Shown here: positions 26,377-42,392 of the stretch, one piece after another
How positions within the stretch are numbered: the first letter of the stretch is position 1
How the letters are laid out: each line of letters starts with the position of its first letter
DNA from: Enterobacteria phage T6
Sequence record: MH550421
Length of the DNA stretch: 64,000 bases
Strand: one strand, 5' to 3'
Notes under the pieces: model-generated
The model's database searches: none
What the model saw: only the letters and a program-made list of their open reading frames with translations
What the model was told of the DNA's origin: nothing
Program-made: the position numbers and the translations under genes

Positions 26377-26558
26377 AAGGAATTTATATAATCAATGAGT
26401 TCTTGTTCTTTATTATCGAATTCTTTAGAAAGTTCTTCGTACTCGTTTGCACTAAAAGGACCGCATTCATTACAAACTTTTTCCAATTCACTATTTTTAT
26501 CCATAACTTCGTGGATAAGAGAAAAGAGTTTGTCTTTTTGTTCTTTGCTTAGGCTCAT
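26373..26558 (-). CDS. Hypothetical small acidic protein
   Basis: 61 aa ORF; similar in composition to the preceding one. Confidence 0.5.
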   Translation of the reverse strand: MSLSKEQKDKLFSLIHEVMDKNSELEKVCNECGPFSANEYEELSKEFDNKEQELIDYINSL

Positions 26559-26728
26559 ATATTAATTTCCAAAAGTTTTAAAATAATTCGCTTTTGCTTA
26601 AATATTTCCACAGTTAAATGATCAGTATCTTTTTGACCAATTCCAATGGCAAAACCTTTATTAACAGCGAGTTCAATTAAATTATCAAGTTCACGTAACA
26701 CTTCATATTGTAACTCAGAACTATTCAT
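26555..26728 (-). CDS. Hypothetical small protein (57 aa, below the ORF-track cutoff)
   Basis: Hand-translated MNSSELQYEVLRELDNLIELAVNKGFAIGIGQKDTDHLTVEIFKQKRIILKLLEINI; ATGA overlaps on both sides. Confidence 0.35.
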   Translation of the reverse strand: MNSSELQYEVLRELDNLIELAVNKGFAIGIGQKDTDHLTVEIFKQKRIILKLLEINI

Positions 26729-26952
26729 TTCGGTTTACCTTCTTTAACGAAATCTGGATAAGGATAAAATCCCGAATAAAATCCTTCACCTTTATGATTG
26801 ATACATCCTTTATTAGAACAATAGCACCAATAATCGAAATCACAAGCCATTTCATCGTTGCATAAAGCAAAAACAACCGGCCATTTACACTTTTCACAAT
26901 GGGCATTTTTAAGAATACTAGTTTGGCTCATAACCATGTAACCTTTAAGCAA
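26725..26952 (-). CDS. Hypothetical Cys-rich small protein
   Basis: 75 aa; 9 Cys including CEKC...C...C.C..C. Confidence 0.5.
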   Translation of the reverse strand: MLKGYMVMSQTSILKNAHCEKCKWPVVFALCNDEMACDFDYWCYCSNKGCINHKGEGFYSGFYPYPDFVKEGKPK

Positions 26953-27155
26953 TATTCTTCTACATGCTGTTTACGACCTTTCTTATCAATAAAGGTATAT
27001 TCAACGAATGTTCCAATGTAGTCTTTATCTACATCATGTGGACTATTAATTGGACATTTAGTACGGCAAATGCGTTCCCATTGACGAATAATTACTGCCT
27101 TATTCTTTGGGTCATATGGATGTGGATAATGTATATTCATAATAATGGTTCCCAA
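26928..27155 (-). CDS. Hypothetical protein
   Basis: 75 aa ORF. Confidence 0.5.
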   Translation of the reverse strand: MGTIIMNIHYPHPYDPKNKAVIIRQWERICRTKCPINSPHDVDKDYIGTFVEYTFIDKKGRKQHVEEYCLKVTWL

Positions 27156-27604
27156 TCAACAATCACAATTTCTAATTTAGAGGAATATGTATCTAAAATC
27201 CCCTCAATAATATCCCAGTTCCCTTTACCTATGCCTGCACCAATCCTAGGCATATAGATTGTAGGTTTAATCAGTTTATTTTCACCAAACTCATTTAATT
27301 CTAACATACAATTCATTAAAGCGGAATACTCAAAATTTGGCCCTGGTTGAAATTGAGTATAAAGATTAAAGCAGTAAGCTTTATGAGTCCTAAAGTATTT
27401 TTCATAGACTGAATAAGAACCAAGTTTAGTTACATCACCCCATTCAGTCTGTAATTTATCAGCTTCCAAAATTTTAGGGAAAGCTTTGGTTAATTGACCT
27501 GCGACTCCAGCTTTCATCGTGTGAAAACAATTACATCCATGCGCAATATTTTTACCTTCAGCGAAAAGGGCGACAATATCGCCCTTGATATATTTTACAA
27601 TCAT
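27137..27604 (-). CDS. Macro-domain protein (ADP-ribose binding/processing fold)
   Basis: 155 aa; GDIVALFAEGKNIAHGCNCFHTMKAGVAGQL resembles the macro-domain N-x6-G-G-V signature. Confidence 0.55.
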   Translation of the reverse strand: MIVKYIKGDIVALFAEGKNIAHGCNCFHTMKAGVAGQLTKAFPKILEADKLQTEWGDVTKLGSYSVYEKYFRTHKAYCFNLYTQFQPGPNFEYSALMNCMLELNEFGENKLIKPTIYMPRIGAGIGKGNWDIIEGILDTYSSKLEIVIVDWEPLL

Positions 27605-27948
27605 CTAGTACTCAATCCTCGATTATAAGAATCTACCAAACGGTCAACCATTGAATGACAAGCGGCTTTATCTTTCTCCTCCGCAACTGAGCATTCTAAG
27701 GTATTCCACTTTTTAGCATATCGTTTTAACAATGTATCGTTTTTGTATCTGCTTGATTTATCTCTTTCTCCGTCTTTATATGCATATATTAATTTCTGTG
27801 CAAATTCAGCTTGGCATGCTTTATTTTTCCCACAATAATCTGCCGCAGTGCGGTTTACATATTCTCTAATTTCAGTATATGATGTATCTGCTGACGCAGA
27901 AGCAGAAAATGAAATTAATCCTATACATAAAACCAAAATTTTAGTCAT
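27601..27948 (-). CDS. Hypothetical secreted protein
   Basis: 115 aa with signal peptide MTKILVLCIGLISFSASASA; 4 Cys. Confidence 0.55.
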   Translation of the reverse strand: MTKILVLCIGLISFSASASADTSYTEIREYVNRTAADYCGKNKACQAEFAQKLIYAYKDGERDKSSRYKNDTLLKRYAKKWNTLECSVAEEKDKAACHSMVDRLVDSYNRGLSTR

Positions 27949-28486
27949 TTACTATTTCCAAAAGTTTATTATTTTTAAGGTAATTAGCCTTTTCTAGGAC
28001 TTCAGAAGCATATTTAGAACCAGCTTTAACATTCCATCCCGAATTATAAGAGGATATTGCTTTTCTTATATCGCCCTTATGTATATTTAACCAATAAGAA
28101 AGTTCAATGTACGCCCAGGAAGCTGAATTGGATCGTTTATTCAACATTCTTTTTATTTCAGCATCGGTCATATTATAACCAAGTTCCTTAACTCTCGCTC
28201 GCATAGTAGGCAAATAATTTTGGAACATTCCGTAGGCGTGATGCTTTGGTTTAGATTTTAAATTAACTCCGCCAGAGCTTTCTTGCCATATAATGGCTGC
28301 CATTATATGGCCTAATCCGCTCTTGTGGATGTTTTTGTGTGTTTTATATTTTCCATCCTTAGAAAATTGTTCCCCGAATTGATACGCGTAACGCATGTTA
28401 TCGAGTTGGACATTACTGAAAGTATGCTCGGAGCTATGTGCCATCATTGAAATGGCCAATAGACCAGCGAGTAGTGCTTTTCTCAT
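27941..28486 (-). CDS. Secreted lytic-transglycosylase-like (SLT domain) protein
   Basis: 181 aa; signal peptide MRKALLAGLLAISMMAHS; SLT-like motifs IIWQESSGG, YGMFQ, SYNSG. Confidence 0.6.
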   Translation of the reverse strand: MRKALLAGLLAISMMAHSSEHTFSNVQLDNMRYAYQFGEQFSKDGKYKTHKNIHKSGLGHIMAAIIWQESSGGVNLKSKPKHHAYGMFQNYLPTMRARVKELGYNMTDAEIKRMLNKRSNSASWAYIELSYWLNIHKGDIRKAISSYNSGWNVKAGSKYASEVLEKANYLKNNKLLEIVND

Positions 28487-28493
28487 GCTTACC

Positions 28494-28955
28494 TCATTGA
28501 GTTTTAATTACTGCTTTAGAAGCCTTTCCTGGTAAACGACGACTGTTGATAATTGCCATCCTACATTGAAGTGACGGGTCTTTGAACTTCTCATTAGGTT
28601 TACAAACTGTAAATCCAAGCCAAAGATTTCCATCTGTGATTTCTAAACGTCCAGGACGATATTCAACCCCATCAATAAAATCCTCGTCAATGTCAGGACG
28701 CGGTGGCATACTCAGGAATTCATTAACTTCTAAAACATGGTCTTTTATTTTATGGAATAATTCAAAAACGTATGTCTCATCAATCTCCCGTTGAATTGCA
28801 CGATCAAGAAGATGCTGAGAATATTTTAGATGAAACGATGAGACTCCTGCTGCTTTTGATGCCTCACGAATCTCATTGTTAATTTGACGAAACTCCGACT
28901 CAAAGTGGCGACGAAGCTTATTTCGACGGATAAAAACTTCTGTATTGATAGTCAT
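28494..28955 (-). CDS. regB: Endoribonuclease RegB
   Basis: 153 aa; MTINTEVFIRRNKLRRHFESEF... matches T4 RegB from memory. Confidence 0.8.
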   Translation of the reverse strand: MTINTEVFIRRNKLRRHFESEFRQINNEIREASKAAGVSSFHLKYSQHLLDRAIQREIDETYVFELFHKIKDHVLEVNEFLSMPPRPDIDEDFIDGVEYRPGRLEITDGNLWLGFTVCKPNEKFKDPSLQCRMAIINSRRLPGKASKAVIKTQ

Positions 28956-28982
28956 GTTGTTCTCCTCTTAACTGATAGAAAA

Positions 28983-29012
28983 ATTATACCACAGTCAAGA
29001 GGAAAAGTAAAC
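28983..29012 (-). promoter_or_regulatory. T4-type early promoter (upstream of regB)
   Basis: Minus strand GTTTACT - 17 nt - TATAAT in the e/regB intergenic region. Confidence 0.65.
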
Positions 29013-29016
29013 AACT

Positions 29017-29985
<969 letters not shown>

Positions 29986-40678: not shown

Positions 40679-42392
40679 TAACCTCAATTGGTTTGTTGGT
40701 GTTGTTGAAGATAGAATGGACCCATTAAAATTAGGTCGTGTTCGTGTTCGTGTGGTTGGTCTGCATCCACCTCAAAGAGCACAAGGCGACGTAATGGGTA
40801 TTCCAACTGATAAATTACCATGGATGTCAGTTATTCAACCTATAACTTCTGCAGCAATGTCTGGAATTGGAGGCTCCGTTACTGGTCCGGTAGAAGGAAC
40901 TAGAGTTTATGGTCATTTTTTAGACAAATGGAAAACTAACGGAATTGTCCTTGGCACGTATGGTGGAATAGTTCGCGAAAAGCCTAATAGACTTGAAGGA
41001 TTTTCTGACCCGACTGGACAGTATCCTAGACGTCTAGGAAATGATACTAACGTATTAAACCAAGGCGGAGAAGTAGGATATGATTCGTCTTCTAATATTA
41101 TCCAAGACAGTAATCTAGATACTGCAATAAATCCTGATGATAGACCGTTATCAGAAATTCCAACTGATGATAATCCAAATATGTCAATGGCTGAAATGCT
41201 TCGCCGTGATGAAGGATTAAGACTAAAAGTTTATTGGGATACTGAAGGATATCCGACAATTGGTATTGGTCATCTTATCATGAAGCAACCAGTTCGTGAT
41301 ATGACCCAAATTAATAAAGTTTTATCAAAACAAGTTGGTCGTGAAATTACTGGAAACCCAGGTTCTATTACAATGGAAGAAGCGGTAGCTTTATTTGAAC
41401 GTGATTTGGCTGATATGCAACGGGACATTAAATCACATTCTAAAGTAGGACCAGTCTGGCAAGCTGTCAACCGTTCTCGTCAAATGGCGTTAGAAAATAT
41501 GGCATTTCAAATGGGTGTTGGCGGTGTAGCTAAATTTAACACAATGTTAACTGCTATGTTAGCAGGAGATTGGGAAAAAGCATATAAAGCTGGTCGTGAT
41601 TCATTGTGGTATCAACAAACAAAAGGCCGTGCATCCCGTGTTACCATGATTATTCTTACGGGAAATTTGGAATCATATGGTGTTGAAGTGAAAACCCCAG
41701 CTAGGTCTCTATCAGCAATGGCTGCTACTGTAGCTAAATCTTCTGACCCTGCTGATCCTCCTATTCCAAATGACTCGAGAATTTTATTCAAAGAACCAGT
41801 TTCTTCATATAAAGGTGAATATCCTTATGTGCATACAATGGAAACTGAAAGCGGACATATTCAGGAATTTGATGATACCCCTGGGCAAGAACGATATAGA
41901 CTAGTTCATCCGACTGGAACATATGAGGAAGTATCACCGTCAGGAAGAAGAACAAGAAAAACAGTCGATAATTTGTATGATATAACCAACGCTGATGGTA
42001 ATTTTTTGGTAGCTGGCGATAAAAAGACTAACGTCGGTGGATCAGAAATTTATTACAACATGGATAATCGTCTCCACCAAATAGATGGAAGCAATACAAT
42101 ATTTGTGCGTGGCGATGAAACTAAGACGGTTGAAGGTAATGGAACTATCCTAGTAAAAGGTAATGTTACTATTGTAGTTGAAGGTAATGCTGACATTACA
42201 GTTAAAGGAGATGCTACCACTTTAGTTGAAGGAAATCAGACTAATACAGTAAATGGAAATCTTTCTTGGAAAGTTGCCGGGACAGTTGATTGGGACGTTG
42301 GTGGTGATTGGACAGAAAAAATGGCATCTATGAGTTCTATTTCATCTGGTCAATACACAATTGATGGTAGCCGTATAGACGTAGGTTTATAA
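40662..42392 (+). CDS. 5: Baseplate hub + tail lysozyme gp5 (cell-puncturing device)
   Basis: 576 aa; N-terminal OB domain, internal T4-lysozyme-like domain (MLRRDEGLRLKVYWDTEGYPTIGIGHL), C-terminal VxGxxT beta-helix repeats. Confidence 0.95.
   Translation: MEMISNNLNWFVGVVEDRMDPLKLGRVRVRVVGLHPPQRAQGDVMGIPTDKLPWMSVIQPITSAAMSGIGGSVTGPVEGTRVYGHFLDKWKTNGIVLGTYGGIVREKPNRLEGFSDPTGQYPRRLGNDTNVLNQGGEVGYDSSSNIIQDSNLDTAINPDDRPLSEIPTDDNPNMSMAEMLRRDEGLRLKVYWDTEGYPTIGIGHLIMKQPVRDMTQINKVLSKQVGREITGNPGSITMEEAVALFERDLADMQRDIKSHSKVGPVWQAVNRSRQMALENMAFQMGVGGVAKFNTMLTAMLAGDWEKAYKAGRDSLWYQQTKGRASRVTMIILTGNLESYGVEVKTPARSLSAMAATVAKSSDPADPPIPNDSRILFKEPVSSYKGEYPYVHTMETESGHIQEFDDTPGQERYRLVHPTGTYEEVSPSGRRTRKTVDNLYDITNADGNFLVAGDKKTNVGGSEIYYNMDNRLHQIDGSNTIFVRGDETKTVEGNGTILVKGNVTIVVEGNADITVKGDATTLVEGNQTNTVNGNLSWKVAGTVDWDVGGDWTEKMASMSSISSGQYTIDGSRIDVGL

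What the first reader, a model, noticed from the sequence alone, without database searches (positions are those of the whole stretch)
27137..27604. Macro-domain protein in the tk-regB early block
The 155-aa ORF has a macro-domain-like signature (N-x6-G-G-V region). T-even phages encode ADP-ribosyltransferases, and hosts use ADP-ribosylation in defence, so a phage macro domain could be an ADP-ribose hydrolase with regulatory or counter-defence function.
Basis: partly seen in the sequence, partly recalled or inferred. Interest (0 to 1): 0.5.

Follow-up and report, generated by a model that had tools for sequence, protein, structure and literature searches.

The report
Phage T6 Tk.4/AdfM macrodomain

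Summary
The window is phage T6 (100% match). The 155-aa ORF at 27137-27604 (minus strand) is real. It is the ortholog of T4 Tk.4 (153/155 identical) and lies in the same vs-tk.4-tk.3 arrangement.

The macro fold is firmly supported:
- Pfam Macro scores above its gathering threshold.
- A family profile hits solved macrodomains: BT1257 9e-17, Poa1p 5e-14, TARG1 2e-13, SCO6735 4e-13, DarG 3e-12.

The function is already published. A T4 tk.4 knock-out becomes sensitive to DarTG2, and the gene was named adfM (bioRxiv 2025.11.20.689424).

Two details are added here. First, the family carries an invariant Gln84 where DarG and TARG1 have their catalytic Lys. That matches SCO6735, a proven thymidine-ADP-ribose DNA hydrolase with an essential Gln85. 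Second, T6 differs from T4 only by G31K/S32A in the phosphate-binding loop. These changes sit on a 43-nt recombination patch that 58 phage records share.

Biochemistry for Tk.4, and any test of the T6 allele, are still missing.

Verdict: observation confirmed, interpretation supported, already known, low interest.

The parts
27137..27604 (-). tk.4 / adfM coding sequence (155 aa stand-alone macrodomain, stop codon included)
   Evidence: ORF listing. 100% DNA match to phage T6, annotated 'phosphatase'. 153/155 identical to T4 Tk.4. Pfam Macro above cut-off. AF2 pLDDT 93.9.
27500..27541 (-). Residues 22-35 (HGCNCFHTMKAGVA): phosphate-binding loop (loop 1) with invariant G23, N25, G33, A35. Contains the T6-specific K31 and A32.
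   Evidence: Family conservation in 60 phage-side and 80 bacterial relatives. Aligns with the N22 region of DarG and with V25...K34 of SCO6735 (PMC9411070).
27500..27542 (-). Mosaic patch (CDS nt 63-105). It holds 13 of the 16 nucleotide differences from T4 tk.4: 6 synonymous codon changes plus G31K and S32A.
   Evidence: Pairwise DNA alignment. The same patch allele is present in 58 phage records.
27353..27367 (-). Residues 80-84 (NLYTQ). Invariant Gln84 occupies the position of catalytic Lys80 of DarG, Lys84 of TARG1 and essential Gln85 of SCO6735.
   Evidence: hmmalign to the family profile. Q84 is invariant in 60/60 and 79/80 relatives. SCO6735 Q85A/E are inactive (PMC9411070).
27215..27250 (-). 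Residues 119-130 (PRIGAGIGKGNW): second diphosphate-binding loop (G-x-G). G126 stands where TARG1 has catalytic Asp125.
   Evidence: Invariant P119, I121, G122, G124, W130. Alignment to TARG1 PRIGCGLDRLQW.
27601..27604 (-). ATGA overlap: the vs stop codon (TGA) overlaps the tk.4 start codon (ATG). This suggests translational coupling.
   Evidence: Read directly from the sequence and ORF coordinates.
27137..27140 (-). ATGA overlap: the tk.4 stop codon overlaps the start codon of the tk.3 homolog (26928..27140).
   Evidence: Sequence. RefSeq CDS coordinates converted from locus L001. The tk.3 protein is 100% identical to T4.
28983..29011 (-). Sigma-70-like promoter match (TTTACT-17-TATAAT with TG) upstream of regB. 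It is the candidate early promoter for the regB-vs.1-vs-tk.4-tk.3 transcript. This is an inference only.
   Evidence: Consensus scan. The total number of promoter-like sites does not exceed shuffles, so this is weak. No minus-strand terminator-like site lies between it and tk.4.

Best explanation
The ORF is phage T6's ortholog of T4 Tk.4, recently named AdfM (anti-DarT factor, macrodomain). It is a stand-alone 155-aa macrodomain of the ALC1-like class, the class that holds TARG1, DarG, SCO6735, BT1257 and Poa1p. It is probably made early in infection from the regB-vs.1-vs-tk.4 transcript and is translationally coupled to its neighbours.

When the host DarTG2 toxin-antitoxin system releases DarT2, that enzyme ADP-ribosylates thymidines in TNTC motifs of single-stranded phage DNA and blocks replication. 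Tk.4/AdfM most likely binds the ADP-ribose in the cleft between its two glycine-rich loops and hydrolyses the thymidine-ribose bond, which restores the DNA. It would act as an orphan antitoxin without DarG's toxin-binding domain.

The chemistry is probably the Gln-dependent, water-mediated route proposed for SCO6735, because Gln84 replaces the catalytic Lys of DarG and TARG1.

Shown here: the fold, the orthology to T4 Tk.4 and the active-site signature. Shown by others, in T4: the gene is needed for resistance to DarTG2. Inferred: catalytic de-ADP-ribosylation by Tk.4, activity of the T6 K31/A32 allele, and early expression.
For: Identity and synteny: the window is T6. The protein is 153/155 identical to T4 Tk.4, and the flanking vs, tk.3 and regB proteins are 100% identical to T4.

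Function: tk.4 was the only significant hit of a T4 transposon screen under DarTG2, and a clean knock-out is sensitised (bioRxiv 10.1101/2025.11.20.689424). T2 and T4 lacking adfN, and T4 lacking both adfA and adfN, stay DarTG2-resistant, so another factor was expected (PMC11825919).

Mechanism: Gln84 is invariant in 60/60 and 79/80 relatives. It aligns with Gln85 of SCO6735. SCO6735 removes DarT-made dT-ADP-ribose faster than DarG, rescues DarT toxicity, and is dead as Q85A/E (PMC9411070).
Against: No biochemical assay of Tk.4 from T4 or T6 has been reported in the papers I could read. The preprint itself says only that enzymatic removal 'seems likely'.

The catalytic Lys of DarG/TARG1, which is also kept in the biochemically proven PhiKZ AdfM (K78), is absent. 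The Asp of the TARG1 dyad is absent too.

Tk.4 lacks the 5-residue-longer mobile loop, with Lys89 and Lys93, that SCO6735 uses to hold DNA.

The T6 allele places Lys where 49/60 and 72/80 relatives have Gly, inside the phosphate-binding loop. No T6 mutant has been tested.

Inactive mutants of SCO6735, DarG and TARG1 can also inhibit DarT in vitro, so protection need not be purely catalytic.
Confidence: 0.75

Rival explanations
1. Tk.4/AdfM protects against DarTG2 mainly without catalysis. It would bind DarT2, or its ADP-ribosylated DNA product, stoichiometrically, acting as an inhibitor or sponge like AdfA and AdfB.
For: The canonical catalytic Lys and Asp are missing. Catalytically dead SCO6735 Q85A, DarG K80A and TARG1 K84A all inhibit DarT in vitro, and SCO6735 does so most strongly (PMC9411070). 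AdfA and AdfB are described as direct DarT inhibitors (PMC13309987).
Against: Strict conservation of the whole ADP-ribose pocket and of Gln84 in about 140 phage and bacterial relatives, none with a DarT partner, fits an enzyme better than a binder of one toxin. The closest Gln-type relative is a fast hydrolase. Tk.4 has no counterpart of the DarT-binding C-terminal domain of DarG.
Confidence: 0.12
2. It is what RefSeq calls it, a 'phosphatase'. That means a Poa1p-like ADP-ribose-1''-phosphate phosphatase or O-acetyl-ADP-ribose deacetylase that clears small ADP-ribose metabolites, for example by-products of RNA repair. The DarTG2 effect would then be secondary.
Against: The 'phosphatase' label comes from the old A1pp domain name, not from an assay. 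The only phenotype known is specific to DarTG2. Poa1p has Ser, not Gln, at the key position. From my own knowledge: T4 tRNA repair by Pnk/Rnl1 does not produce the 2'-phosphate junction that yields Appr>p.
Confidence: 0.07
3. It reverses ADP-ribosylation or RNAylation made by the phage's own Alt, ModA and ModB enzymes, acting as a regulatory eraser of the phage programme.
For: T-even phages encode three ADP-ribosyltransferases (PMC9503650). An early-expressed eraser would be a natural partner.
Against: No gene linkage to alt or mod in this block. The characterised relatives cleave thymidine-linked or Glu/Asp-linked ADP-ribose. From my own knowledge: Alt and Mod modify arginine, a linkage normally removed by ARH/DraG-type enzymes rather than macrodomains. 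The tk.4 screen hit was reported as specific to the DarTG2 condition.
Confidence: 0.04
4. It destroys ADP-ribose-derived immune signalling molecules, such as Thoeris or other TIR products, rather than DNA adducts.
Against: That structural match is far weaker than those to the DarG/TARG1/BT1257 group. The papers read here give no genetic evidence for it. The known phenotype is DarTG2-specific.
Confidence: 0.02

Closest known systems
T4 Tk.4 = AdfM (anti-DarT factor Macrodomain; HIDEN-SEQ preprint, bioRxiv 10.1101/2025.11.20.689424)
   Same: 153/155 residues identical. Same length. Same position between vs and tk.3, with the same overlapping start and stop codons.
   Different: T6 has K31/A32 instead of G31/S32 in the phosphate-binding loop, carried on a 43-nt patch of clustered substitutions. 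The DarTG2 phenotype was shown for T4, not for T6.
Streptomyces coelicolor SCO6735 (PDB 5E3B) and Bacteroides BT1257 (PDB 2FG1/2AFC): stand-alone Gln-type ALC1-like macrodomains
   Different: Only 20-28% identical. Tk.4 lacks their 5-residue-longer mobile loop with the DNA-contacting lysines. It has HGCNC and YTQ where they have H[VI]CND and IGQ.
DarG antitoxin macrodomain of DarTG2 (T. aquaticus 5M31/5M3E, M. tuberculosis 5M3I)
   Different: No catalytic Lys80 (Gln instead). No C-terminal DarT-binding domain: 155 aa against about 338, with only model positions 2-146 matched. Score is 25 bits against the family cut-off of 250. No adjacent darT gene.
PhiKZ gp104 'AdfM' (Cell Rep 2026, PMC13309987)
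   Same: A phage-encoded stand-alone macrodomain that counters DarTG2, with the same name given independently. Biochemically shown to remove DarT2 ADP-ribose from DNA.
   Different: It is a Lys-type, DarG-like protein (N23, K78) that is imported into the phage nucleus. Sequence similarity to Tk.4 is marginal (BLAST E 0.018 over 23 residues). The two AdfMs therefore belong to different subfamilies.
Human TARG1/OARD1 (PDB 4J5Q-S)
   Same: Top Foldseek hit (E 1.2e-10). Profile E 2.4e-13. Short mobile loop of the same length as in Tk.4. It also cleaves thymidine-linked ADP-ribose.
   Different: The Lys84/Asp125 catalytic dyad is replaced by Gln84/Gly126 in Tk.4.
Yeast Poa1p (PDB 6LFQ-U), ADP-ribose-1''-phosphate phosphatase
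   Different: Ser instead of Gln at the key position. A large insertion precedes loop 2. It acts on a small-molecule substrate.

Membership tests
Macro domain superfamily (Pfam PF01661) | Profile score at or above Pfam's gathering threshold | tested here: met
   25.0 bits against a cut-off of 22, covering profile positions 2-113 of 118.
Macro domain superfamily (Pfam PF01661) | Three-layer alpha/beta macro fold | tested here: met
Macro domain superfamily (Pfam PF01661) | Loop 1 Asn followed by a glycine-rich turn (N-x6-G-G-[VLI]), and a loop 2 G-x-G | tested here: met
   N25-x6-A32-G33-V34, a variant of the G-G-V form, and I121-G122-A123-G124. N25, G33, G122 and G124 are invariant in the family.
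ALC1-like macrodomain class (TARG1, DarG, SCO6735/BT1257, Poa1p) | Closest structural and sequence neighbours belong to this class, clearly separated from MacroD-type, viral, PARG and macroH2A types | tested here: met
DarG antitoxin (NCBIfam NF048014, equivalog) | Full-length match above the curated cut-off, including the C-terminal DarT-binding domain | tested here: not met
   25.1 bits against a cut-off of 250. Only model positions 2-146 of 338 are matched, and the protein is 155 aa.
DarG antitoxin (NCBIfam NF048014, equivalog) | Catalytic lysine (Lys80 in T. aquaticus and M. tuberculosis DarG) | tested here: not met
   Invariant Gln84 aligns with Lys80.
DarG antitoxin (NCBIfam NF048014, equivalog) | Encoded next to a darT toxin gene | tested here: not met
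   The neighbours in T6 are vs and tk.3. No DarT2 homolog lies within 6 kb of 80 bacterial relatives. This rests on tblastn with one DarT2 query, so distant toxins could be missed.
TARG1/OARD1 | Lys84/Asp125 catalytic dyad | tested here: not met
   Gln84 and Gly126 occupy these positions.
SCO6735/BT1257 subclass (Gln-type thymidine-ADP-ribose hydrolases) | Glutamine at the position of the DarG/TARG1 catalytic lysine | tested here: met
   Q84 aligns with Q85 of SCO6735 and with the equivalent Gln of BT1257. It is invariant.
SCO6735/BT1257 subclass (Gln-type thymidine-ADP-ribose hydrolases) | Mobile loop five residues longer than in DarG/TARG1 (carrying Lys89 and Lys93 in SCO6735) | tested here: not met
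   Tk.4 has QFQPGPNFEY, the same length as in TARG1 and DarG. SCO6735 has QHGMKTGSKGAPVRY (loop defined in PMC9411070).
SCO6735/BT1257 subclass (Gln-type thymidine-ADP-ribose hydrolases) | Hydrolysis of DarT-made dT-ADP-ribose on ssDNA | not testable with these tools
   Needs an enzyme assay. Only genetic evidence exists, for the T4 ortholog.
AdfM of T4 (tk.4) | Orthology: near-identical sequence in the conserved vs-tk.4-tk.3 position | tested here: met
   99% identity over 155 aa with identical gene order.
AdfM of T4 (tk.4) | Required for plating on DarTG2-expressing E. coli | not testable with these tools
   Shown for T4 only. No deletion data for T6 were found.
AdfM of PhiKZ (gp104) | DarG-like active site (N23, K78) and close sequence similarity | tested here: not met
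   BLAST E 0.018 over 23 residues. Tk.4 has Gln at the Lys position.

The most novel reading that the evidence does not exclude
The Lys31/Ala32 phosphate-binding-loop allele might not be neutral. T6 and roughly a fifth of close T4-like phages carry it on a short recombination patch. It could retune AdfM towards different DarT2 variants, different DNA hypermodification backgrounds, or additional ADP-ribosylated substrates such as RNA or protein. That would make this loop an arms-race hotspot in a Gln-type macrodomain family that is also widespread as an orphan gene in bacteria.
Probability: 0.1. Interest if true: 0.45.

Novelty: already known. Interest (0 to 1): 0.2.

Why it matters
The result confirms that T6, like T4, carries the macrodomain counter-defence against DNA ADP-ribosylation by DarTG2. 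It also corrects the uninformative 'phosphatase' label in RefSeq.

The useful residue for specialists is mechanistic. The T-even AdfM is not a DarG copy. It is a Gln-type ALC1-like macrodomain, as SCO6735 is, but with a short mobile loop. It therefore differs from the Lys-type PhiKZ protein that bears the same name. Naturally occurring loop-1 alleles (T4 G31/S32 and T6 K31/A32) offer a ready-made structure-function comparison. None of this changes the overall picture, which is already in the literature.

Tried and rejected
1. Filing the protein as a DarG antitoxin. Rejected: it scores 25 against a cut-off of 250, has no C-terminal domain, no catalytic Lys and no darT neighbour.

2. Equating it with PhiKZ AdfM. 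Rejected: the similarity is marginal and the active-site type differs.

3. Looking for a conserved toxin or other partner next to bacterial relatives. There were no DarT2 hits within 6 kb of 80 loci. Neighbour clustering found only clade-level housekeeping synteny. The DarT search used a single query, so very divergent toxins could be missed.

4. Assuming the family is phage-only. Rejected: at least 510 relatives are found in bacterial genomes, many on megabase contigs. However, one 'Bacilli MAG' hit is really a T4-like phage contig.

5. A plain MAFFT alignment of the eight reference macrodomains mis-aligned the catalytic strand. I relied instead on hmmalign to the family profile, which agrees with the HMMER pairwise alignments and with the structure-based alignment described in PMC9411070.

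6. Treating K31 as a sequencing error or a T6 lab mutation. Rejected: the same patch occurs in 58 phage records, and Lys or Arg appears at this position in distant relatives.

7. The promoter scan was not informative as a whole: 15 sites against 18.3 expected from shuffles.

It was repeated without that row.

Full report
**What is there.** The window matches phage T6 at 100% identity over the 4.3 kb tested around the ORF (AP018814 / NC_054907). It lies in a run of minus-strand genes: e lysozyme, regB, vs.1, vs, this ORF, the tk.3 homolog, several small ORFs, and tk. Its ATG overlaps the TGA of vs (ATGA at 27601-27604). Its own TGA overlaps the ATG of the tk.3 homolog (27137-27140). This is the usual signature of a tightly coupled operon. 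RefSeq calls the product 'phosphatase'.

**Orthology.** The T4 gene in the same position is tk.4, annotated 'phosphatase; contains A1pp phosphatase motif'. The two proteins are 153/155 identical. The flanking Tk.3, Vs and RegB proteins are 100% identical between T4 and T6.

**Is it a macrodomain?** Yes, by every test.
- Pfam Macro (PF01661) scores 25.0 bits against a gathering threshold of 22.
- PHROG 335 matches at 1.4e-64.
- The single sequence finds solved macrodomains: BT1257 at 2e-8, Poa1p at 3e-5, TARG1 at 3e-3 and DarG at 1e-2.
- A profile built from 44 homologs gives BT1257 8.6e-17, Poa1p 5.2e-14, TARG1 2.4e-13, SCO6735 4e-13, M. tuberculosis DarG 2.5e-12 and T. aquaticus DarG 6e-10. 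Coronavirus Mac1 reaches only 0.012.
- An AlphaFold2 model built on a 60-sequence alignment has mean pLDDT 93.9 and pTM 0.90.
- Foldseek against the PDB returns TARG1, Poa1p, BT1257 and DarG, with TM up to 0.81.

**What is already known.** The A1pp/macro match of tk.4 orthologs was reported in 2006 (PMC1524935). Work on AdfN showed that T2 and T4 lacking adfN, and T4 lacking both adfA and adfN, remain resistant to DarTG2. [quoted passage not shown] A November 2025 preprint then screened a T4 transposon library on cells expressing DarTG2. It found tk.4 as the single significant hit, confirmed that a clean knock-out is sensitised, noted structural similarity to M. tuberculosis DarG, and named the gene adfM. 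Enzymatic removal of ADP-ribose was described only as 'likely' (bioRxiv 10.1101/2025.11.20.689424). Independently, a 2026 Cell Reports paper gave the same name to PhiKZ gp104 and showed biochemically that it removes DarT2-made ADP-ribose from DNA (PMC13309987).

**Active site.** I recovered the solved sequences of DarG, TARG1, BT1257, SCO6735 and Poa1p from the PDB searches, and PhiKZ gp104 from the paper. I aligned them to the Tk.4 family profile. The strand motif N80-L-Y-T-Q84 of Tk.4 aligns with N-F-P-T-K80 of DarG and with L-I-T-K84 of TARG1. Tk.4 therefore has Gln where those enzymes have their catalytic Lys. It has Gly126 where TARG1 has Asp125. PhiKZ AdfM keeps the Lys (K78) and is barely similar to Tk.4 by BLAST (E 0.018). 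The two 'AdfM' proteins are different subfamilies.

Gln84 is invariant in 60/60 phage-side homologs and in 79/80 bacterial homologs. The same holds for G23, N25, G33, A35, D49, Y82, P119, G122, G124 and W130. The same Gln is found in SCO6735 (Gln85) and BT1257. SCO6735 is a stand-alone macrodomain that removes DarT-made thymidine ADP-ribose faster than DarG or TARG1. It rescues E. coli from DarT, has no activity on guanosine adducts, and is inactivated by Q85A or Q85E. A water-mediated mechanism, with Gln positioning the substrate, has been proposed for it (PMC9411070). This gives a precedent that reconciles the missing Lys in Tk.4 with an anti-DarT2 hydrolase function. Tk.4 differs from SCO6735 and BT1257 in lacking their five-residue-longer mobile loop.

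**Distribution and context.** tblastn finds relatives in 2,812 of 50,697 phage records, across Escherichia, Klebsiella, Salmonella, Pseudomonas, Vibrio, Acinetobacter and other phages. At least 510 relatives exist in representative bacterial genomes, many on large chromosomal contigs. In the 80 loci I read, they are stand-alone proteins of about 150 aa with the same signature. No DarT2 homolog lies within 6 kb. No neighbour is conserved across the family. The family is thus an orphan macrodomain in both bacteria and phages rather than a recently detached DarG. It fails the DarG equivalog test, scoring 25 bits against a cut-off of 250 with only the macro part matched.

**The T6 allele.** T6 and T4 tk.4 differ at 16 nucleotides, and 13 of these fall in CDS nt 63-105. 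That patch gives six synonymous codon changes plus G31K and S32A, next to each other in the phosphate-binding loop. This pattern points to a short recombination patch, not to point mutation. Position 31 is Gly in 49/60 and 72/80 relatives, but Lys or Arg recurs in distant members. Position 32 corresponds to Lys34 of SCO6735, which contacts the distal ribose and phosphate in simulations. The T6 patch allele occurs in 58 phage records, including AR1, wV7, RB51, RB68 and slur03. It is therefore a natural allele. Whether it changes activity is unknown.

**Expression.** A good sigma-70-like match with an extended -10 lies upstream of regB (28983-29011, minus strand). No terminator-like site on the minus strand separates it from tk.4. 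The scan as a whole is not enriched over shuffles, so early co-transcription is an inference only.

**Verdict.** The best explanation is an orphan, Gln-type ALC1-like macrodomain that removes DarT2-made ADP-ribose from thymidines in phage DNA (confidence about 0.75). The main rival is non-catalytic inhibition of DarT2. Novelty: already known. Interest: low. The residual open points are biochemical proof for Tk.4, the mechanism without Lys, and the meaning of the T6 loop allele.

Noticed in passing
window 28955-29017 (regB / e junction); compare T4 NC_000866 62800-66415: In T6, regB is followed directly by the e lysozyme gene. The T4 block vs.3, vs.4, vs.5, vs.6, vs.7, vs.8, denV, ipII and ipIII (about 3.7 kb) has no homolog anywhere in this 64-kb window. 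From my own knowledge, vs.4 is the anti-CBASS gene acb2, and the absence of denV fits the classical higher UV sensitivity of T2/T6.
   Followed up: partly
window 26555-26952 (-): T6 has two extra small ORFs (57 aa and a Cys-rich 75 aa) between tk.2 and tk.3 that T4 lacks. RefSeq names them 'rI antiholin' and 'tail assembly protein', which look like mis-transferred labels.
   Followed up: no
window 27941-28486 (-): A full 181-aa vs.1 ORF, 99.4% identical to T4 Vs.1, is present. The T6 RefSeq record annotates only a 231-nt CDS here.
   Followed up: partly
T4 tk.4 codon 36 (equivalent to window 27497-27499): A published comparison of T4 laboratory sublines lists a Ser36Gly polymorphism in tk.4 (PMC8573959). 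It lies just after the phosphate-binding loop and is a second natural variant near the ADP-ribose pocket.
   Followed up: no
L003 / L007 (JBOFGC010000414.1, 'MAG: Bacilli bacterium'): The 44-kb contig carrying a Tk.4 homolog encodes T4-type RNA ligase 1, a Dda-like helicase, polynucleotide kinase, dCMP deaminase and a T4 spanin. It is a T4-like phage contig binned into a bacterial MAG. The macrodomain gene sits two genes downstream of RNA ligase 1 there.
   Followed up: partly
window 41181-41678 (+): A second lysozyme-like stretch, 43% identical to T4 e over 166 aa. From my own knowledge it is probably the lysozyme domain of baseplate protein gp5.
   Followed up: no
window 27566-27586 (+): A terminator-like hairpin (8-bp stem, 5 G-C pairs, T-rich tail) on the plus strand, antisense to the 5' end of tk.4. 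It may be chance, although terminator-like sites in the region exceed the shuffle mean (5 against 1.9).
   Followed up: no
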